64,000 nt of DNA from positions 78,642-142,641 of the forward strand of contig AP024681.1 in assembly GCA_025999335.1 (NCBI GenBank), in the 5' to 3' direction. The notes below the pieces were generated by a model. It saw only the letters and a program-made list of their open reading frames with translations. It was not told the origin of the DNA and did not search any database. Positions 12,750 to 48,754 of the stretch are shown here, one piece after another; the first letter of the stretch is position 1; each line of letters opens with the position of its first letter. The stretch is from Candidatus Parcubacteria bacterium (GTDB lineage: Bacteria; Patescibacteriota; Minisyncoccia; UBA6257; HR35). The translations under genes were made by a program, and so were the position numbers.

Positions 12750-13613
12750 TTATTGATGCTCGCTTTCAATTTTACCTCCTAAAGTTCTTAATTCATCTAA
12801 TGCTTTCTTAGCTTCTTCTTTGTCAGGAGGTTTCCCGTGCCATTCAAATTTTTTTTCCATAAAACTAACGCCTTTGCCAGGTATAGTATAAGCAATAATC
12901 ACTGAAGTTCGTTTCCATTCTGAACGAGCTTCATTAATAGCATCGATAAAAGCTCTAATATTATGTCCATCAACTTCCAAAACATGTAAGCCAAAAGATT
13001 CTAATTTTTGTTTTAATGGTTCTAAAGGCATAACATTTTCAGTTATACCATCAATTTGAATATAATTTCTATCAATAATAATAGTTAAATTATCAAGTTG
13101 GTTTTTACCTAAAAACATATAAGCTTCCCAAGTATTGCCTTCTTGATGTTCGCCATCTGAAGTTATGCAATAAATATGATAATCCTTTTTATCAAGCTTA
13201 GCGGCAATTGCCATACCAATTGCTTGAGAAATACCTTCGCCTAAAGGTCCTGAAGTGTTTTCTATGCCTGGAAGAACGGCACGATGGGGATGGCCCTGTA
13301 AACGTGTATTTATTTTCCGCAAAGTTTTTAATTCTTCAATAGAAAAATAACCAGCTAAAGCCATAGTTACATATTGCACAGGACAGATATGACCATTAGA
13401 AAGAACTAATCTATCTCGTTCATCCCAAAATGGATTACGAGGATCAAATTTTAAAATATGAAAATACAAAGCTGAAAAAATATCAGCCATACCTAAAGGA
13501 CCAGCAGAGTGGCCTGACCCAGCTTCAACCAAAGTCTCGATTATTAATCTACGAATTTCATTGGCCTTCTCTTCTAAAAATTTCAATTTGTTTTCATCTA
13601 AGCTGTTAATCAT
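12750..13613 (-). CDS. Transketolase, N-terminal subunit (TPP-binding)
   Basis: 287 aa; GSGHSAGPLGMADIFSALYFH and ITSDGEHQEGNTWEA TPP-binding motifs. Confidence 0.85.
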   Translation of the reverse strand: MINSLDENKLKFLEEKANEIRRLIIETLVEAGSGHSAGPLGMADIFSALYFHILKFDPRNPFWDERDRLVLSNGHICPVQYVTMALAGYFSIEELKTLRKINTRLQGHPHRAVLPGIENTSGPLGEGISQAIGMAIAAKLDKKDYHIYCITSDGEHQEGNTWEAYMFLGKNQLDNLTIIIDRNYIQIDGITENVMPLEPLKQKLESFGLHVLEVDGHNIRAFIDAINEARSEWKRTSVIIAYTIPGKGVSFMEKKFEWHGKPPDKEEAKKALDELRTLGGKIESEHQ

Positions 13614-13663
13614 AAATATTTAATTCTAAAATTTTATTATTTCTTTTATCTCTCAATAAAAAA

Positions 13664-13924
13664 TCAATTTTTGTCTTCTTCAATTTTTTTTATCAATAAT
13701 TCTTTCTTCTTATATTTTTTAACAAATTCTTCCTCATTATAATTATGAGGACTATTAATAACTAACAAATTTTCGTCTTCATAATATTCATAATCATTTA
13801 AAATAAATTCTTCAACAATCTCTTCTTTAATATTACCATCAGCATCAAAATCATAACATATTATCGCTACTTTATCGCCTTTATTAAAAATATTTTTAGT
13901 TGTAAAAACAAAGTATTGCATCAA
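13664..13924 (-). CDS. Hypothetical protein
   Basis: 86-aa acidic ORF, no recognised motif. Confidence 0.3.
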   Translation of the reverse strand: MMQYFVFTTKNIFNKGDKVAIICYDFDADGNIKEEIVEEFILNDYEYYEDENLLVINSPHNYNEEEFVKKYKKKELLIKKIEEDKN

Positions 13925-13936
13925 AACTTAATAAAA

Positions 13937-15124
13937 TTATGTTTGGGAATCGGGTCTATTATCTTTATTAAACGAGACCATTGTTACTGGTACAGAATTC
14001 GGATCAAAATGTTCATAATAACCTAATTCTTTCTTTCCAGAAAAACAAAAAATACTTTTTAAATTATCTATAGCATTAGCAATGGCTAAAGGACCTGCAA
14101 ATTGAGAATAATTATTCTGATGATTACTTATAGCTATGCCAAAATAACGAGTAAAAATAGAATAAGAACCACTACTATTATAGCTATATGGCACAGGAAT
14201 TCCATAAGCAATTATAGATATTCTTTCATTGGTACGAGAATTATAAATATCTAAAGTAATAACCGCTTGAACATATCTCAAAGCTTCATATCTTTGACCT
14301 TGAGTACCGAAACGTTCTCGTGGTATAGACAGTGTTGTACCAGATCCTCCTGATTCGTAACCAGGTATTAAATTAATAGACACATTATCAACTATATAAT
14401 CAGGAAATTCAATAGTACCCTTTGGTGGTACAGTTTGCTGATTTATCTCAGGATTACTTCTTGCATAACCTCTTTCTCTTGTTCGATAATCCATTGAAGA
14501 TATATCACCTACATTTCGCATATTAAAAGCTTCACCTAAAAAATCAGTGATTAAATGTGAAGTGTAATCTCGAATAACATTAAAATTATTCTGATACCAA
14601 CTATAACCCCCTCTTAAATTTCTCACATTATTTCTGTTTATTGTAAAAGTAGCGTTTTCACGATTGAAAAAGTTTCTTATTTTATTAATATCGTTATGCT
14701 CTAAAGTTAATTTTTTAGCTAAAATTGCTAATTCTAAGAGTCTTTCTTCGGGGTCTGAATTATTAGCTGATTCAAGTGTTATAATTCCTCCTAGCAAATC
14801 AATTGATTTTATTCTACCGTCAACGCCCCTTCTAACACCTATCACATCTTTCCAACCGGCTAATTGCACATTTTCACCTTCATTACTTTTATCTATAACC
14901 TCAACTATTTTAGGACCATTATTTAAAAATCTATCTAAGCTTCTAGCATGCACTTCGCCCATTTTACCAGTAAAAAAAACAGCTTGAGAGCTCATAAGAT
15001 AAACTAAAAATCTAGATTTAAAAAATTTTGATAAGTATTTAATCTTCTCTCTTATTTCCTCAGTTATCCTTACTACACCTTCTGGCTCTCTTTCTTTTCT
15101 TTCTCTTATAGGTTGTTCTTCCAT
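13937..15124 (-). CDS. Hypothetical protein (charged helical N-terminus, beta-rich Asn/Ser/Tyr/Gly-rich C-terminal region)
   Basis: 395-aa uninterrupted ORF; no family recognised from sequence. Confidence 0.45.
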   Translation of the reverse strand: MEEQPIRERKEREPEGVVRITEEIREKIKYLSKFFKSRFLVYLMSSQAVFFTGKMGEVHARSLDRFLNNGPKIVEVIDKSNEGENVQLAGWKDVIGVRRGVDGRIKSIDLLGGIITLESANNSDPEERLLELAILAKKLTLEHNDINKIRNFFNRENATFTINRNNVRNLRGGYSWYQNNFNVIRDYTSHLITDFLGEAFNMRNVGDISSMDYRTRERGYARSNPEINQQTVPPKGTIEFPDYIVDNVSINLIPGYESGGSGTTLSIPRERFGTQGQRYEALRYVQAVITLDIYNSRTNERISIIAYGIPVPYSYNSSGSYSIFTRYFGIAISNHQNNYSQFAGPLAIANAIDNLKSIFCFSGKKELGYYEHFDPNSVPVTMVSFNKDNRPDSQT

Positions 15125-15167
15125 TAATTTTATTATAACATTAAAATTAATTTAAAAATAATAATTA

Positions 15168-16169
15168 TTATTTTAAAATATCAAATTTTTTAAAAATAAT
15201 ACGCGGTTTTTTAAAAACAATTTCTAAATTTTCAACACGACTTAACAAAGGACCCTGTTTAACTAATGATAAAAATTTCAACAAAGATTGCTCGCTTCCT
15301 TGCGCAATTATTTCTAAAGATCCGTCATTTAAATTTCTAACATAACCTTTAATATTGAATAAATTAGCTTTTTCTAAAGTAAAAAAACGAAATCCAACGC
15401 CTTGCACCAAACCATAAATCCTAATATAAACTTCAAAAAAATCTTTTTTAAAATCATCAAATGTCAAACCTTCTTCTAAAGTAAATACATAATTATTAGC
15501 CATAATCGTTGTTCTTGTTAATGATTCCAGATAAGCGCCACACTTTAAATCTTTGCCAATATCTGAAGCTAAAGATCTAATATAAGTGCCTGAAGAAACC
15601 TTTAACTCAAGTTTTAAAAAAGCAATATTAAAACTACTATTATTAGAAGGTAAAAATTTATAAAAACTAAAATCTTTGAATAACAAACTATTTGCGTCAT
15701 ATTTTTGAAAATCCAAAATTTTTAAATCATAAATTATAATTTTTTTTGGTTTTAATTGAAAATTAATACCTTTACGTGCTAATTTATAAGCGGGAACACC
15801 TTTAATCTTAACAGCTGAAAAAGCAGGAGGAACTTGTATCATCTCACCTTGATAAGAAGATAATATTTTTTCTATATATAAAAAATCAGGAATTTCTTTA
15901 TGGGTAAATTCTATAATACCATCACGATCATAAGTATCAGAAATGCATCCTAAAATAATTCCAGCTATGTAAATTTTTATGCTATTTTTTAAAAAAATGC
16001 TTAACTGTTTTGTTGCTTTATCTATGCCCAAAATTAAAATACCATCAGCGAAAGGATCTAAGCTACCTCCGTGTCCAATTTTTTTATGTTCTCTATTTTT
16101 TAAAAAATCAACTATTTGACGAGAAGTATAATTTTGAGGTTTGTTAAAAACAACTAAACCTTCCATCAA
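15168..16169 (-). CDS. truB: tRNA pseudouridine(55) synthase TruB fused to C-terminal acylphosphatase domain
   Basis: 333 aa; N-terminal GHGGSLDPFADGILILGIDKATK (TruB catalytic Asp motif); C-terminal IYGLVQGVGFRFF and GYVRNLNDGSLEIIAQG match both acylphosphatase PROSITE signatures. Confidence 0.8.
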   Translation of the reverse strand: MMEGLVVFNKPQNYTSRQIVDFLKNREHKKIGHGGSLDPFADGILILGIDKATKQLSIFLKNSIKIYIAGIILGCISDTYDRDGIIEFTHKEIPDFLYIEKILSSYQGEMIQVPPAFSAVKIKGVPAYKLARKGINFQLKPKKIIIYDLKILDFQKYDANSLLFKDFSFYKFLPSNNSSFNIAFLKLELKVSSGTYIRSLASDIGKDLKCGAYLESLTRTTIMANNYVFTLEEGLTFDDFKKDFFEVYIRIYGLVQGVGFRFFTLEKANLFNIKGYVRNLNDGSLEIIAQGSEQSLLKFLSLVKQGPLLSRVENLEIVFKKPRIIFKKFDILK

Positions 16170-16982
16170 TCATAAAATTTCACTTATATAATTAGAAAAA
16201 TTTTTAAGCAAGTCTGATTTAATTTGAATTAGAAGTTTATCTCTTAAAACAAAAGGAGATTTAATTTTAATTTTAAAATCATAAAAATTATTAGTTAAAA
16301 CAATATTTTTATCAATAAAAACTTCAATCTTTTTATTAATATCATTAAAAGTATCTAAATGTTTTTCTAATAACTGCAAAAATTCATCATTAAAATTTTC
16401 TTTATTAATTCTTATTTTAATTTCGCTAATATTACGATAACGTGAAAAATTATTAATAATATCTATTTTATTAAAAGGAATTTTTAGAAGCGAACCATCA
16501 TCTAAACGTAAAATCAAATATCTAAATGTAAAATCAATTACTTTTCCTTTAAAGGTATTATTAATCACTACAGTTTCGCCTTTACGAAAGTTATCCTCAA
16601 AAATAGAAATCCAACCCATAAATATATCTTTCAAAGTATTCTGAAAAATTATTATCAAAATAGCACCTAAAGCGCCAGCGCCGGTTAAAAGAGCATTTAT
16701 ATTAATCTTAAATTGATTAAAAGCATAAATTGTAAATATTAAAATTAATAAAAAACGAATTATAAGTTTTAAAGCATCAAAAATAGTAATAATCCATTCC
16801 TTATGAGCTTCGTATTTTTTCTTGGTAAACTTAATTGTTGTTTTAAAAATTATTTTTAAAATCAAAATTAATATCAAATAAACAAATATTAGAAAAACAA
16901 TAAACCAACCAATATTAGTTAGTTCTTCGGAATAAATATCAATAAATTTTTTGAAATAGCGCACAGGAAGATTAAAGTTCAT
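16170..16982 (-). CDS. Mechanosensitive ion channel (MscS family)
   Basis: 270 aa; 3 N-terminal TM helices followed by MscS-type beta domain (GETVVINNTFKGKVIDFTFRYLILRLDDGSLLKIPFNKI). Confidence 0.65.
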   Translation of the reverse strand: MNFNLPVRYFKKFIDIYSEELTNIGWFIVFLIFVYLILILILKIIFKTTIKFTKKKYEAHKEWIITIFDALKLIIRFLLILIFTIYAFNQFKININALLTGAGALGAILIIIFQNTLKDIFMGWISIFEDNFRKGETVVINNTFKGKVIDFTFRYLILRLDDGSLLKIPFNKIDIINNFSRYRNISEIKIRINKENFNDEFLQLLEKHLDTFNDINKKIEVFIDKNIVLTNNFYDFKIKIKSPFVLRDKLLIQIKSDLLKNFSNYISEIL

Positions 16983-17149
16983 ATTTATTATTTCGTAATT
17001 ATTTTTTAATTTAATAGCATAAGAAATTAATTTTTTAATTTTTAATTAACACCAAAACACATATAATTTAATCAATAATTAAAATATAGTCTATATAATT
17101 TAATTATATTATGAAAAATTGAAAATATAGATTATTAAAATTTATAGAA

Positions 17150-19783
17150 TTATTTATATCTTAAGCAATATAAATCATTAATTTTATTAATAGTTTCTCG
17201 AGTTAGGTTACCTGAAGAGAATTTAAGATTATATTTTTTCTGAAAGTTAGCTAATTCTTTTTTCAATTGATAATCAAAACGCGGAGTTAATTTTAGTTTT
17301 GTTCCTTCAAATTTATTTAAAAATATTTTAATTTTTCTAAAACGTTGACCCTTAGACTCATTAGTAATATAAGGCTTACATATTTTTGGCGATTGAATAA
17401 TTTCAGCTAAAATTTGTTTTAAGTTTTCAGCAAATAATTGAACATCAAGAATAGTATTTTGTTGACGATAAAAAGGTTGTTGTCTAACATAACCAGAAGC
17501 TCTACTTCCTTCGTTGGTAGTTGTCGTTGCTGAAGAAATAATAATATATTCTATAGAATCAGTAGCTAGAGAGGATTCATTATTATAAATATCTAAAAAT
17601 ATCGCATAAACATTTTTAATTCCCTGGTTGCTATTACCTCCATAATTACTATCAGCTAAATCCCACAAAACTGTTGTTGCAAAAGTTATCGTGGCGTAAT
17701 TAACACCATTATTGCTAATTCTAACTTGCTTTGATGAAGTAGAGCTATCTAAATAGGTAGCAGTTAAGGTTAAAGTGACATTAGTTGATGTTGTTTGTGA
17801 ATTATTATTATTGATCACAACATTTGTTGATGTTACGGCTGGCAAAATAGTTATATTTTGAGTAGCACTAGCGTAAGGAAGCGCTGAAATTTTTAAAGAA
17901 TGTGCGCCAGCTTTGGTGTCTTTATAATAAAACGATGAAGTTGCTGTATTTATAATTGACAGCTGAGAAATAACAGTTGAGGTATTGCTGACAGAATAAA
18001 AACTACCATTCACTGAAGTAGATGTAAGATAAATTAATACTGATGTTGCTGGTTGAAAATTATTATTATAAAAATCTTTTAAAATAAAATCTATTTTATT
18101 AGAAAGATTACCGGCAATAACACTTTGTTCTGAAGAAGTAAAATTTAATTTTGAAAAACCAGGGAAAATAGCAAAAAATGGCCTTGGCAAGTTATTAACA
18201 GCAATAAAAGCACCACCTACAAACAAAAGTCTGTTATCAGGAACAATTTTTAAAACATTACCGCTAAAACTAGGATCAAAATAATTTATCAACGAACCAT
18301 CAGAAATATTTAATGCAGCAAAATAATTTTTAGTTGTTGAATTAATCTGCGTAAAAGCTCCTCCTGAATACAAAATTGAACCATCGGAAGAAAGAGCTAA
18401 AGCAAAAACAGTATTATTAGCATCAGCATTAAAAGAACTTACTAAAGAGCCATCAGAAGTGTTTAATGCAGCAATATAGTTTTTAGTTGTTGAATTAATC
18501 TGCGTAAAATATCCACCGATATACAAAATTGAACCATCAGAAGACAAAACTAAAGAACGAACAGTGTTATCAGCGCTAGCATTAAAAGAACTTACTAAAG
18601 AACCATCAGAAGTGTTTAATGCAGCAACATAGTTTTTAGTTATTGAGTTGACTTGAGTAAAATCTCCACCGATATACAAAATTGAACCATCAAAAGAAAG
18701 AGTTAAAGCAAAAACAGTGTTATTAGCATCAGCATTAAAAGAACTTACTAAAGAACCATCAGAGGTGTTTAATGCAGCAACATAGTTTTTAGTTGTTGAG
18801 TTGACTTGAGTAAAAGCTCCACCGATATATAAAGTTGAATTATCAGAAGAAAGGACTAAGGAATAAACAGAGCTATTAGCATCAGCATTAAAAGAACTTA
18901 CTAAAGAACCATCAGAAGTGTTTAATGCAGCAACATAGTTTTTAGTTGTTGAGTTGACTTGAGTAAAGTCTCCGCCGATATATAAAGTTGAATTATCAGA
19001 AGACAAAACTAAAGAACGGACAGCACTATTAGCATCAGCATTAAAAGAACTTACTAAAGAACCATCAGAAGTGTTTAATGCAGCAACATAGTTTTTAGTT
19101 GTTGAGTTGACTTGAGTAAACATACCTCCGATATATAAAATTGAACCATCAGAAGAAAGAGTTAAAGCAAAAACAGTGTTATTAGCATCAGCATTAAAAG
19201 AACTTACTAAAGAACCATCAGAGGTGTTTAATGCAGCAACATAGTTTTTAGTTGTTGAGTTGACTTGAGTAAACATACCTCCGATATATAAAATTGAACC
19301 ATCAGAAGAAAGGGCTAAAGCAAGAACAGTATTATTAACCATTGGTTTAAAATTATTATCCAAAGTCCCATCAGCTAAAATATGGATAACTCTTCCAACA
19401 GTTGTTGTGCCTACTAAATTAAAATTTCCAGCAATATAAAAACCTCCTGAATTATCAGGAACAACTGCATAAATAGTATCATTTATTCTTAAATTTCTTA
19501 AAGAAGTTGTTGGAATTAAAAGATTGCCACTCGTAGCACTAAATAAAGAACCTTTGCCAATATTTAAACCAACAAGATCAAAATCACCAGCAATATAAAG
19601 GTAATTATTCTCAATATCAGGAAATATATCGAAAACTACTGGATCTCCGAAAACATTACTCTTGCTCACTCCCCAAAATTCATAATGAGGATCATTATTA
19701 AAATAAATACTACCAGCGTAAATATAATTAGAAATCAAAAAAAATTGCGTTAAGAATATAAAAATATAAAAAAATCTATTCAT
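17150..19783 (-). CDS. Secreted delta-60-repeat (beta-propeller-type) surface protein with possible C-terminal peptidoglycan-binding-like region
   Basis: 877 aa; signal peptide; about 8 tandem about 50-aa repeats YIGGxFTQVNSTTKNYVAALNTSDGSLVSSFNADANNTV resembling delta-60 repeat consensus. Confidence 0.6.
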   Translation of the reverse strand: MNRFFYIFIFLTQFFLISNYIYAGSIYFNNDPHYEFWGVSKSNVFGDPVVFDIFPDIENNYLYIAGDFDLVGLNIGKGSLFSATSGNLLIPTTSLRNLRINDTIYAVVPDNSGGFYIAGNFNLVGTTTVGRVIHILADGTLDNNFKPMVNNTVLALALSSDGSILYIGGMFTQVNSTTKNYVAALNTSDGSLVSSFNADANNTVFALTLSSDGSILYIGGMFTQVNSTTKNYVAALNTSDGSLVSSFNADANSAVRSLVLSSDNSTLYIGGDFTQVNSTTKNYVAALNTSDGSLVSSFNADANSSVYSLVLSSDNSTLYIGGAFTQVNSTTKNYVAALNTSDGSLVSSFNADANNTVFALTLSFDGSILYIGGDFTQVNSITKNYVAALNTSDGSLVSSFNASADNTVRSLVLSSDGSILYIGGYFTQINSTTKNYIAALNTSDGSLVSSFNADANNTVFALALSSDGSILYSGGAFTQINSTTKNYFAALNISDGSLINYFDPSFSGNVLKIVPDNRLLFVGGAFIAVNNLPRPFFAIFPGFSKLNFTSSEQSVIAGNLSNKIDFILKDFYNNNFQPATSVLIYLTSTSVNGSFYSVSNTSTVISQLSIINTATSSFYYKDTKAGAHSLKISALPYASATQNITILPAVTSTNVVINNNNSQTTSTNVTLTLTATYLDSSTSSKQVRISNNGVNYATITFATTVLWDLADSNYGGNSNQGIKNVYAIFLDIYNNESSLATDSIEYIIISSATTTTNEGSRASGYVRQQPFYRQQNTILDVQLFAENLKQILAEIIQSPKICKPYITNESKGQRFRKIKIFLNKFEGTKLKLTPRFDYQLKKELANFQKKYNLKFSSGNLTRETINKINDLYCLRYK
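18300..19340 (-). repeat. Near-identical about 150-bp tandem DNA repeats (at least 6 copies) inside delta-60 repeat gene
   Basis: recurring unit ...ccatcagaagtgtttaatgcagcaacatagtttttagttgttgagttgacttgagtaaa... at about 150-bp period. Confidence 0.8.
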
Positions 19784-47854: not shown

Positions 47855-48706
47855 ATGAATTTAATTTTTCAAGCTCTAGGGTTGCTGGGCGACATTGTTG
47901 TCGTCTGGTTTGTGCCCATTCTTGGCGTCGCTATCGCGGCGCCGGTTCTGGCGGTTGTAATTGCCGCCAATAATTCGGTTGGCGGGGGGATTGTTCTTAC
48001 TATCGCTGCCCTTCTGGCATGGGCTTGCGCCGTCCGCCAGATGTGGTGGCAGATGTGGGCGTGTCTGGCGGCACTTTTGCCGCTGGCCGCGCTGGCATTC
48101 ACCGCGCCTCTCTGGGCCCGTTACTGGGCCCTGGGTCTCCAGGCTCTAGCTCTGGGGATTCTTTTTATCGTCCCTGGAGCTATCTGGCCCTCTGCCCGGG
48201 CGGTTTTTTGGGTTTGGCTTGTCGCTGGAGTCGTCCTCACCGCCATTCTCGCCGGTGGAGTTTTCACCGGCGGAGCGGTGGCGGTTGTGCTCCTAGGTCT
48301 TCTTCTCCTAGGAGCTGGAGCGATCCTTTTCTCCCAAGGAGCCCGGCCTTGGGAAATCCGGCGCGCTCAGCGCCAGACCGCAAGGGTCCTAACTGGTCTC
48401 GGCGTTGCCGCCCTGGCAATCGGGCTTTTTAGCCCGGTTGTCAGGAATTGGCAATTGCCCGAACTTCGGGCACCGGCGCCCATCGCCAATATGTGGGCCT
48501 ATTTGTCGGCTCACACAGAGAAATGGGCGCTAAGTGCCCAAAGGGGTCTACTCGGCGAGCGGGCTAAGACCAGCTCGCTTGAGGAGATGGGGGAAGCTGC
48601 ACAGCTGGCTCACAAAGCCCGCTGGAAGCGGCTCATCACCCAGGTTCCCGATGCTCCTCCTTCGCGGGAGGAATGGCGGGATCTGGGGATCCCTCAAGAT
48701 CCCTAA
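47855..48706 (+). CDS. High-GC-encoded multi-pass membrane protein of unknown function (compositional island)
   Basis: 283-aa Ala/Leu/Gly/Val/Trp-rich ORF with about 6 predicted TM helices plus about 100-aa soluble tail; strong SD aaggagg 8 nt upstream; body about 60+% GC, with the CTG/CTC Leu and CGC/CGG Arg codons that the rest of the window lacks. Confidence 0.6.
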   Translation: MNLIFQALGLLGDIVVVWFVPILGVAIAAPVLAVVIAANNSVGGGIVLTIAALLAWACAVRQMWWQMWACLAALLPLAALAFTAPLWARYWALGLQALALGILFIVPGAIWPSARAVFWVWLVAGVVLTAILAGGVFTGGAVAVVLLGLLLLGAGAILFSQGARPWEIRRAQRQTARVLTGLGVAALAIGLFSPVVRNWQLPELRAPAPIANMWAYLSAHTEKWALSAQRGLLGERAKTSSLEEMGEAAQLAHKARWKRLITQVPDAPPSREEWRDLGIPQDP

Positions 48707-48720
48707 CCATCCCCCAACCG

Positions 48721-48754
48721 CCCGCAGCCCTCACGCAGAGCTGCGGGCTTTTTT
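48721..48754 (+). terminator. Rho-independent terminator (GC-rich hairpin + T-run)
   Basis: cccgcagc...gctgcggg stem (8 bp) followed by cttttttatttt, 15 nt after stop of the high-GC ORF. Confidence 0.75.

What the first reader, a model, noticed from the sequence alone, without database searches (positions are those of the whole stretch)
15168..16169. TruB-acylphosphatase gene fusion
The TruB catalytic domain (GHGGSLDPFADG) is followed in the same ORF by a complete acylphosphatase domain carrying both PROSITE signatures (IYGLVQGVGFRFF; GYVRNLNDGSLEIIAQG). This replaces the usual PUA-domain region. I know of no link between acylphosphatase activity and pseudouridine synthesis. The fusion may reflect genome compaction or a novel coupling.
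Basis: seen in the sequence. Interest (0 to 1): 0.5.

Follow-up and report, generated by a model that had tools for sequence, protein, structure and literature searches.

The report
TruB pseudouridine synthase with acylphosphatase tail
In a small clade of ultra-small Patescibacteria, the tRNA pseudouridine-55 synthase TruB carries a complete acylphosphatase domain where its usual RNA-positioning PUA domain would be; the fusion is real and conserved and I found no paper on it, and it gives a testable hint that an acylphosphatase fold can serve an RNA enzyme.

Summary

It is not an artefact. An independent assembly of the raw run matches at 100% identity. About 124 homologous fused proteins, down to 39% identity, occur in Parcubacteria/Patescibacteria metagenomes. 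The clade is small: about 28 representative clusters against more than 12,000 TruB-family representatives.

The AcP catalytic Arg and Asn are kept in 99-100% of 97 fused proteins. The fusions also share residues absent from stand-alone AcPs. One lineage has lost the active site yet keeps the domain. The AlphaFold model has pTM 0.89, which suggests a fixed two-domain unit.

Best reading, inferred and not shown: the AcP domain is a docked C-terminal module that substitutes for PUA in positioning tRNA, and in most lineages it probably still hydrolyses acyl phosphates. The main rival is a simple tethering of two independent enzymes. No paper in the searchable library describes it. Interest is moderate.

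The parts
15168..16169 (-). Whole truB-acyP fusion ORF (333 codons plus stop at 15168-15170; TTG start at 16167-16169, alternative ATG at 16164-16166).
   Evidence: identical protein BCX15198.1 'hypothetical protein KatS3mg097_090 [Candidatus Parcubacteria bacterium]'; independent assembly L089 identical.
15498..16169 (-). TruB catalytic domain, aa 1-224.
16056..16058 (-). Codon of Asp38, the predicted catalytic aspartate of the GHGGSLDP motif.
   Evidence: Read from the sequence; invariant in alignments; aligns with the GHGGTLDP motif of T. maritima TruB.
15612..15701 (-). Lineage-specific insert of about 30 aa (aa 157-186) inside the catalytic domain; disordered in the model.
   Evidence: pLDDT about 50-58 in blocks 161-180; present only in the window protein and P0002, with other inserts at the same site in other lineages.
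15438..15497 (-). Connecting segment, aa 225-244 (short strand plus helix 237-242; consensus F..EEALTFED...D.LE).
   Evidence: Secondary structure of the model; mean pairwise identity 45%, with A234 at 94% and D239 at 92%.
15171..15437 (-). Acylphosphatase domain, aa 245-333 (beta-alpha-beta-beta-alpha-beta-beta).
15387..15413 (-). AcP phosphate-binding loop G253-L-V-Q-G-V-G-F-R261 (Arg261 is the catalytic/phosphate-binding arginine).
   Evidence: Codons read. In 97 fused proteins: G253 99%, V255 99%, Q256 99%, G257 92%, R261 99%.
15333..15335 (-). Codon of Asn279 (GYVRN), the AcP catalytic asparagine.
   Evidence: 100% conserved in 97 fused and 120 stand-alone AcPs.
15207..15215 (-). Fusion-specific motif F319-K320-K321 at the end of beta4. 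With E246 and K250 on beta1 it is conserved in fusions but not in stand-alone AcPs.
   Evidence: Fused versus stand-alone: F319 93% vs V 57%; R/K320 84% vs L 58%; K321 91% vs E 61%; E246 98% vs A 68%; K250 91% vs L/I. The motif persists as 'YLQKPK' in the active-site-dead lineage.
16170..16982 (-). Upstream MscS-like channel gene whose stop codon abuts the fusion's start; probably co-transcribed. This is context only, not a functional part.
   Evidence: The neighbourhood is not conserved in other lineages.

Best explanation
SHOWN: this is a genuine two-domain protein conserved in a small clade of Patescibacteria (Parcubacteria/Paceibacteria-type genomes). Its N-terminal 224 residues are a complete TruB tRNA pseudouridine-55 synthase catalytic domain with every catalytic residue intact. 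Its last 89 residues are a canonical acylphosphatase domain with an intact phosphate-binding loop (Arg261) and catalytic Asn279. That domain sits exactly where bacterial TruBs carry their PUA domain. The tRNAs in the window have the normal GGTTCGA T-loop, so the substrate exists.

INFERRED: the acylphosphatase domain is docked rigidly on the catalytic domain through residues found only in the fusions (E246, K250 and F319-K321, at the end of the domain away from its active site). It acts as a substitute for the lost PUA domain. It helps hold and orient the acceptor-stem side of the tRNA while the catalytic domain flips out U55, most plausibly by gripping backbone phosphates or the 5'-phosphate with its phosphate cradle. 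Because the hydrolytic Asn is also kept in nearly all members, the domain probably still hydrolyses acyl phosphates in most lineages, which would make the protein dual-use. In at least one lineage the active site has decayed while the domain persists, which shows that the non-catalytic contribution alone can keep it.
For: Reality and intactness.

Fixed two-domain unit: AlphaFold2 mean pLDDT 92.9 and pTM 0.89 for the whole chain; only the aa 160-180 insert is poorly modelled.

Same sequence position as PUA, with no PUA present.

Comparable constraint on both halves across 95 fusions: AcP 52% mean pairwise identity, TruB 56-63%.

Fusion-specific conserved residues absent from 120 stand-alone AcPs. 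By ferredoxin-fold topology (my inference) they cluster at the N-terminal end of beta1 and the C-terminal end of beta4. That is next to the linker and opposite the P-loop.

Active-site-dead but maintained domains: P0094 (hhalign 96% to stand-alone AcPs, P-loop SLVSKTDLK). P0357 with P0407-P0410 form five clusters of 285-288 aa, 61-94% identical, with no Arg and no Asn; they match the fused profile in register (89%, E 2e-6). Their C-terminal domain is still 54% identical within the lineage against 71% for TruB, and they retain 'LE' and 'YLQKPK'. P0311 is similar.

Charge: the fused AcP domain is more basic than stand-alone AcPs, median net charge +4 against +1.

Origin: the 23 short TruBs form one clan containing no fusions, which fits a single origin for the fusion.

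Room for a positioning module: E. coli TruB without PUA binds tRNA about normally but is about 25-fold slower (Keffer-Wilkes 2016 as cited in PMC13492117).

Weak hint that PUA-less TruBs recruit extra tRNA-binding help: in relatives with short TruB, a stand-alone tRNA_bind gene lies 10 bp upstream.
Against: No RNA contact of the AcP domain was shown. I had no model coordinates, so I could not check whether the P-loop faces the tRNA path.

Many close relatives function with a short, PUA-less TruB and no extra domain, so a PUA substitute is not obligatory.

The hydrolytic Asn is needed for catalysis rather than for phosphate binding (my knowledge of AcP mutagenesis). It is 100% conserved in the 97 fused proteins, and the paired motif is intact in 119 of 124. 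The domain is 40-55% identical to ordinary enzymes. That is what an independently working enzyme would look like.

The charge excess may only reflect Lys-rich, low-GC proteomes, since the K+R fraction equals that of the TruB part.

The dead lineage is close to short TruBs, so it could be a stage on the way to loss rather than proof of function.

The TruB half shows few fusion-specific residues (F8, K24, G34, G48, L60, V191), so no clear complementary interface emerged.
Confidence: 0.42

Rival explanations
1. Two independent enzymes on one chain. TruB makes pseudouridine-55, and the acylphosphatase domain hydrolyses small acyl phosphates (acetyl phosphate, 1,3-bisphosphoglycerate, carbamoyl phosphate) with no mechanistic link. 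The fusion is kept only because it saves a promoter and ribosome-binding site or ensures co-expression in a streamlined genome.
For: The AcP active site is fully canonical and almost universally conserved: R261 99% and N279 100%, with the paired motif intact in 119 of 124. The domain is 40-55% identical to stand-alone AcPs and superposes at 0.7-1.0 A. No second AcP is encoded anywhere in the 64-kb window or within +-5-6 kb of five other fusion loci, so the fusion may be the cell's only AcP. Genomes are small: 680 kb, 556 kb and 529 kb contigs.
Against: pTM 0.89 argues for a fixed inter-domain geometry rather than beads on a string. Fusion-specific conserved surface residues are not explained by AcP catalysis. 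Active-site-dead lineages keep an intact, still-conserved domain. No examined relative has truB and acyP as neighbours, which a fusion by stop-codon loss would require.
Confidence: 0.33
2. Catalytic or regulatory coupling. The AcP site binds or hydrolyses a specific phosphorylated species that matters for tRNA. One possibility is that it senses acetyl phosphate as a metabolic signal that tunes TruB or its tRNA-chaperone activity. Another is that it removes an acyl-phosphate-type adduct near the tRNA acceptor end.
Against: Pseudouridine synthesis needs no cofactor or energy (established knowledge). No acyl-phosphate species linked to tRNA is known. Dead-site lineages survive. There is no conserved gene neighbourhood pointing to a pathway.
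Confidence: 0.1
3. The C-terminal domain is a functionless passenger that is slowly decaying towards the short TruB form seen in relatives.
For: Short, domain-less TruBs are the nearest unfused relatives. Some lineages have lost the active site and the last beta-strand.
Against: The domain is retained at 52% mean identity over divergence down to 39% overall, similar to the TruB half, with active-site residues at 99-100%. Even the dead lineage keeps 54% identity with no frameshifts.
Confidence: 0.04
4. Assembly or sequencing artefact that merges two adjacent genes.
For: None found.
Against: An independent assembly is identical. About 124 fused homologues come from many samples and sources. Three GTDB species genomes carry the fusion. 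The junction segment is itself conserved.
Confidence: 0.01

Closest known systems
Bacterial TruB (E. coli 1K8W; T. maritima 1R3E/1ZE2), tRNA pseudouridine-55 synthase
   Different: The C-terminal PUA domain is absent, along with the N-terminal strand that completes it. An acylphosphatase domain of a different fold follows the catalytic domain instead. There is also a 30-aa lineage-specific insert.
Short PUA-less TruBs of other Patescibacteria (211-247 aa, e.g. P0098-P0120, P0411-P0414) and eukaryotic TRUB1/Pus4
   Different: They end after the catalytic domain. They are more basic, with median net charge +18 against +8 for the TruB part of fusions. In one lineage a separate tRNA_bind gene lies immediately upstream.
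Stand-alone acylphosphatases (S. solfataricus 2BJD/4OJH, T. thermophilus TT0497 1ULR, P. horikoshii 1W2I)
   Same: Full-length Pfam PF00708 match. 38-44% identity to these solved chains. TM 0.95-0.96, rmsd 0.7-1.0 A. The P-loop Arg and catalytic Asn are intact.
   Different: It is not a free ~90-aa protein. It carries fusion-specific residues (E246, K250, Q290, F319, R/K320, K321) and is more basic. It scores below the cutoffs of NCBIfam's AcP equivalog models (77 bits against 103).
HypF N-terminal acylphosphatase-like domain
   Different: In HypF the domain is N-terminal and followed by zinc-finger, YrdC-like and Kae1-like domains. None of those is present here.
TrhO (tRNA U34 hydroxylase; 9J5O with tRNA-Ala; homologue 4F67) and Prp3 DUF1115 (4YHU)
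   Different: The resemblance is at fold level only (15-18% identity). They lack the AcP catalytic motif as far as I know, and have different partner domains. Whether TrhO's AcP-like domain touches tRNA could not be checked here.

Membership tests
TruB / tRNA pseudouridine(55) synthase (TIGR00431; Pfam TruB_N) | Profile score above the curated cutoff | tested here: met
   TIGR00431 176.4 bits against 151.45; PF01509 130 bits against 27.3.
TruB / tRNA pseudouridine(55) synthase | Catalytic Asp in the GxxGxLDP motif, plus the conserved His, Tyr, Arg and Lys of the active-site cleft | tested here: met
   D38, H33, Y67, R198, K10, K121 and Y196 are present and 100% conserved in 95 fusions. The motif aligns with T. 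maritima TruB.
TruB / tRNA pseudouridine(55) synthase | Pseudouridine synthase fold of the TruB type | tested here: met
TruB / tRNA pseudouridine(55) synthase | C-terminal PUA domain. This is typical of bacterial TruB but is not a defining feature: eukaryotic orthologues and many Patescibacteria lack it. | tested here: not met
TruB / tRNA pseudouridine(55) synthase | Forms pseudouridine at U55 of tRNA | not testable with these tools
   The substrate site is present: the T-loops of tRNA-Ala and tRNA-Arg in the window read GGTTCGAATCC and GGTTCGATTCC. Activity needs an assay.
Acylphosphatase (Pfam PF00708) | Full-length profile match above the gathering score | tested here: met
   78.4 bits against 22.5, profile positions 2-85 of 85.
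Acylphosphatase | Phosphate-binding loop V-x-G-x-V-Q-G-V-x-F-R with the catalytic Arg | tested here: met
   I-Y-G-L-V-Q-G-V-G-F-R, aa 251-261. R261 is 99% conserved in 97 fusions.
Acylphosphatase | Catalytic Asn in the G-[FYW]-x-x-N motif | tested here: met
   GYVRN, N279; 100% in fused and stand-alone sets. The rest of PROSITE signature 2, recalled from memory, has one V->L change at aa 285.
Acylphosphatase | Beta-alpha-beta-beta-alpha-beta ferredoxin-like AcP fold | tested here: met
Acylphosphatase | NCBIfam equivalog-level score (used for naming a protein 'acylphosphatase') | tested here: not met
   The best model, NF011012, gives 77.4 bits against a cutoff of 103. All AcP equivalog models are below cutoff. 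These are narrow, lineage-tuned models.
Acylphosphatase | Hydrolyses carboxyl-phosphate bonds | not testable with these tools
   Needs an assay with benzoyl or acetyl phosphate.
PUA domain (functional analogue considered) | PUA sequence or fold | tested here: not met
   No Pfam PUA or TruB_C hit. The C-terminal domain is an AcP fold. Only the position in the chain is equivalent.
HypF-type multidomain AcP enzymes | AcP domain followed by zf-HYPF, YrdC-like and Kae1-like domains | tested here: not met
   Only TruB_N, partial TruB_C_2 and Acylphosphatase are detected.

The most novel reading that the evidence does not exclude
The acylphosphatase phosphate cradle has been recruited as an RNA-end or RNA-backbone reader. 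In this reading it recognises the 5'-phosphate or acceptor-stem phosphates of tRNA, or acts hydrolytically on a tRNA-linked phosphoanhydride, and so couples tRNA maturation state to pseudouridine-55 formation. That would give the first physiological RNA-linked role for the long-enigmatic acylphosphatase family, and a new class of PUA-replacing tRNA-positioning module.
Probability: 0.12. Interest if true: 0.7.

Novelty: new variant of a known kind. Interest (0 to 1): 0.4.

Why it matters
Both halves are well-known families, and what is new is the combination. TruB's accessory domain is thought to position the tRNA acceptor stem. Here evolution has swapped it for a phosphate-binding enzyme fold, kept that arrangement over deep divergence, and in one lineage kept the domain even after its active site died.

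If the domain does help handle tRNA, three things follow. It would be a natural experiment on how modular the RNA-positioning part of pseudouridine synthases is. It would add to scattered hints (TrhO, Prp3, mitoribosomal proteins) that acylphosphatase-like folds are recurrent RNA-machine modules. It would also offer a rare functional clue for bacterial acylphosphatases, whose physiological role is still unclear.

If the two halves are merely tethered enzymes, this is a tidy example of gene fusion in streamlined Patescibacteria. It also corrects an annotation: the protein is deposited as 'hypothetical protein', and its relatives as plain 'TruB'.

Tried and rejected
(1) Artefact or frameshift: rejected.

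(2) Origin by fusion of adjacent truB and acyP genes: looked for and not found. Short-TruB relatives L001-L006 have no acyP nearby. The nearest stand-alone AcPs, L011 and L012, have no truB nearby and lie in unrelated, partly high-GC contexts.

(3) Conserved operon context for the fusion: none. The neighbours are an MscS-like gene in the window, an HD-domain gene in L087, and PP-binding genes upstream plus TGT downstream in L088.

(4) Second AcP gene: none in a six-frame HMM scan of the whole window or of five other fusion loci. Whole genomes could not be scanned.

(5) AcP-domain-only homology search returned only stand-alone AcPs and not even the query's own protein. The tool's word-based candidate step is incomplete for this query, so it says nothing about other AcP fusions.

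Its three fusion-bearing species are a lower bound.

(7) AlphaFold-DB fold search for UniProt names and taxa: the library was unavailable.

(8) TruB-side interface residues: only a few fusion-specific positions, inconclusive.

(10) Literature: no paper in the library links acylphosphatase with TruB, pseudouridine synthases or Patescibacteria. The TrhO-tRNA structure paper was not found. Reports of nucleolytic activity of acylphosphatases that I recall from the 1990s could not be retrieved and are not used as evidence.

(11) P0357 and P0311 against stand-alone AcP profiles gave only 34% and 9% probability. Their AcP ancestry rests on the in-register match to the fused-family profile and on the single-stretch full-length match.

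Full report
**1. The observation**

Window 15168..16169 holds a single open reading frame on the minus strand. It has 333 codons from a TTG start, or 332 from the next ATG, which is the start NCBI uses.

Pfam finds TruB_N at aa 27-157 (130 bits, cutoff 27.3). It finds a full-length Acylphosphatase domain at aa 248-331 (profile positions 2-85 of 85; 78.4 bits, cutoff 22.5). Only the first 28 positions of TruB_C_2 match, and there is no PUA-type domain. NCBIfam's TruB equivalog TIGR00431 is passed (176.4 against 151.45). The narrow acylphosphatase equivalog models are approached but not reached (77 against 103). The window is about 27% GC.

**2. Not an artefact**

The identical protein is deposited as BCX15198.1, 'hypothetical protein KatS3mg097_090 [Candidatus Parcubacteria bacterium]', on a 680-kb contig. 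An independent Logan assembly of sequencing run DRR290133 (L089, 5.4 kb) matches window 13050-18443 at 100% identity without gaps.

A search of 5.8 billion protein clusters returned 96 further clusters (P0002-P0097), 78% to 39% identical, nearly all at about 99% coverage and 301-349 aa. All but one (P0094) are annotated with both PF01509 and PF00708. All 97 are recognised by an HMM I built from stand-alone acylphosphatases.

An exhaustive HMMER scan of 1.84 billion representatives (clustered at 50% identity) found 27 additional AcP-bearing representatives plus P0056. TruB-family representatives with E<=1e-30 number 12,099. The architecture is therefore real and recurrent, but confined to a small clade.

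Source names place it in Patescibacteria. They include Candidatus Parcubacteria bacterium KatS3mg097 and KatS3mg096, 'Patescibacteria group bacterium', and a 'Microgenomates group bacterium' MAG. On a neighbour-joining tree of the TruB part alone, the 23 nearest short TruBs form one clan that contains no fusion. This fits a single origin.

**3. Anatomy**

An AlphaFold2 model built on 31 fusion sequences is very confident: mean pLDDT 92.9 and pTM 0.89. Only aa 160-180 is poorly modelled; this is a lineage-specific insert shared with the closest relative only.

By sequence, the query aligns to T. maritima TruB up to about its residue 205. The AcP domain then occupies the stretch that in TruB holds the rest of TruB_C_2 and the PUA domain. 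The protein begins directly with the first strand of the catalytic domain. It therefore lacks the N-terminal strand that, as I recall from E. coli TruB, completes the PUA domain.

**4. Are both halves functional?**

In 95 full-length fusions, the TruB residues K10, H33, D38 (the catalytic aspartate), Y67, K121, Y196 and R198 are all 100% conserved. Two complete tRNAs in the window carry the normal T-loop with U54-U55.

In the AcP domain across 97 fusions, the phosphate-loop residues are G253 99%, V255 99%, Q256 99%, G257 92% and R261 99%. The catalytic N279 is 100%. The paired motif is intact in 119 of 124 fused proteins, and most of the five exceptions are single conservative changes. Mean pairwise identity is 52% for the AcP domain against 56-63% for the TruB segments. 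Both halves are therefore under similar purifying selection. By every sequence and fold criterion the domain looks like a working acylphosphatase.

**5. Signs that the domain is more than a tethered enzyme**

- The pTM of 0.89 for a two-domain chain implies a defined inter-domain geometry.
- The fusions share residues that stand-alone acylphosphatases lack: E246 (98% vs Ala), K250 (91% vs Leu/Ile), Q290 (98%), F319 (93% vs Val), R/K320 (84% vs Leu) and K321 (91% vs Glu). In the ferredoxin-like topology, beta1 and beta4 are antiparallel neighbours. By my inference these residues therefore cluster at the end of the domain next to the linker and opposite the phosphate loop. That is where a domain interface or an extra binding surface would lie, and it leaves the phosphate cradle exposed.
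- The fused domain is more basic than stand-alone acylphosphatases, with median net charge +4 against +1. Lys-rich composition may contribute to this.
- Some lineages have lost the active site yet keep the domain. P0094 is clearly AcP-derived (hhalign 96%) but its P-loop reads SLVSKTDLK. P0357 and P0407-P0410 form five clusters of 285-288 aa, 61-94% identical, on contigs up to 65 kb. Their ~75-aa C-terminal domain matches the fused-family profile in register (89%, E 2e-6) but has no Arg, no Asn and no last strand. It is still 54% identical within the lineage (TruB part 71%) and keeps the fusion-specific 'LE' and 'YLQKPK' landmarks. P0311 is a similar case.

A purely catalytic passenger would be expected to be deleted once inactive. 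Its persistence argues for a non-catalytic contribution.

**6. What that contribution may be**

Published work, as summarised in PMC13492117, reports that removing PUA from E. coli TruB leaves tRNA binding nearly unchanged but slows catalysis about 25-fold. PUA is thought to position the acceptor stem. In archaeal Cbf5, PUA together with the tRNA CCA end anchors the enzyme (PMC2018633 abstract). A module at the same chain position with a ready-made phosphate-binding cradle is a plausible substitute.

In one lineage of relatives with short TruB, a stand-alone tRNA_bind gene ends 10 bp upstream of truB. Those short TruBs are markedly more basic, +18 against +8. Both points hint that PUA-less TruBs compensate for the missing RNA-contact surface in different ways.

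**7. Caveats and rivals**

I could not obtain model coordinates, so no RNA contact is shown. Many relatives manage with a bare catalytic domain. The universally conserved Asn is, to my knowledge, needed for hydrolysis rather than for phosphate binding, which favours a still-active enzyme. The dead lineage is also close to short TruBs, so it could be an intermediate on the way to loss.

The main rival is two independent enzymes kept on one chain for economy. It remains nearly as likely as my preferred reading, and the two readings are not mutually exclusive. No neighbouring truB-acyP gene pair was found that could have produced the fusion by simple stop-codon loss. There is no conserved operon around the fusion. 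There is also no second AcP in the window or in five other loci.

**8. Comparison and novelty**

The protein passes every testable membership criterion for TruB except the non-defining PUA domain. It passes every one for Pfam acylphosphatase except being a free-standing protein. It is not a HypF-type protein.

I found no paper linking acylphosphatase to TruB, to pseudouridine synthases or to Patescibacteria. Databases label members 'hypothetical protein', 'TruB' or, for fragments, 'acylphosphatase'.

I rate it a new variant of a known kind, of moderate interest. It is a clean, conserved domain replacement in a universal tRNA-modification enzyme. It comes with a testable mechanistic hypothesis and a natural 'active-site-dead' control lineage.

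Noticed in passing
window 47880-48750 (ORF 47855..48706, + strand): An island of about 870 bp at 60-65% GC in a 27% GC genome. It contains one 283-aa Ala/Leu/Trp/Gly-rich, membrane-like ORF on the opposite strand to its AT-rich neighbours. It could be a foreign insertion or an assembly chimera.
   Followed up: partly
window 17150..19783 (-), repeats at 18294-19337: An 877-aa protein built from 6.8 tandem copies of a 153-bp (51-aa) unit with 89% matches. It has DUF5122 beta-propeller repeats and a C-terminal peptidoglycan-binding domain.
   Followed up: partly
L001 3668-4675, L002 814-1821, L003 298-1305: In relatives with a short (224-aa) PUA-less TruB, a 107-aa stand-alone tRNA_bind (PF01588) gene ends 10 bp upstream of truB on the same strand. 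In L004-L006 a tRNA_bind gene lies about 3.4 kb downstream.
   Followed up: partly
proteins P0098-P0120 versus P0001-P0097: Short PUA-less TruBs have a median net charge of +18, while the TruB part of the fusions has +8. This may be compensation for a missing RNA-contact domain, or it may be a composition effect.
   Followed up: no
proteins P0357, P0407-P0410, P0311, P0094: TruBs whose C-terminal AcP-derived domain has lost the P-loop Arg and, in P0357/P0311, the catalytic Asn as well, yet is retained. Pfam no longer recognises it as an acylphosphatase.
   Followed up: yes
window 15612-15701 (aa 157-186 of the fusion): A 30-aa low-confidence insert in the TruB catalytic domain, shared only with the 78%-identical relative P0002. 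Other lineages carry different inserts at the same site.
   Followed up: partly
window 12750..13613 (-): A 287-aa ORF that matches only the N-terminal (thiamine-diphosphate-binding) half of transketolase, which suggests a split transketolase.
   Followed up: no
window 13937..15124 (-): A 395-aa ORF 43 nt downstream of the fusion on the same strand, with no family match in Pfam.
   Followed up: no
L088 6465-7622: In one fusion-bearing lineage (P0092), a tRNA-guanine transglycosylase (TGT) gene lies about 500 bp downstream on the opposite strand. This is not seen in the other loci.
   Followed up: no
(tool behaviour): The homology search with the 94-aa AcP domain returned 552 stand-alone acylphosphatases but none of the fusions, not even the query's own protein. 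Negative results from that word-indexed search should not be trusted for short domains embedded in longer proteins.
   Followed up: no
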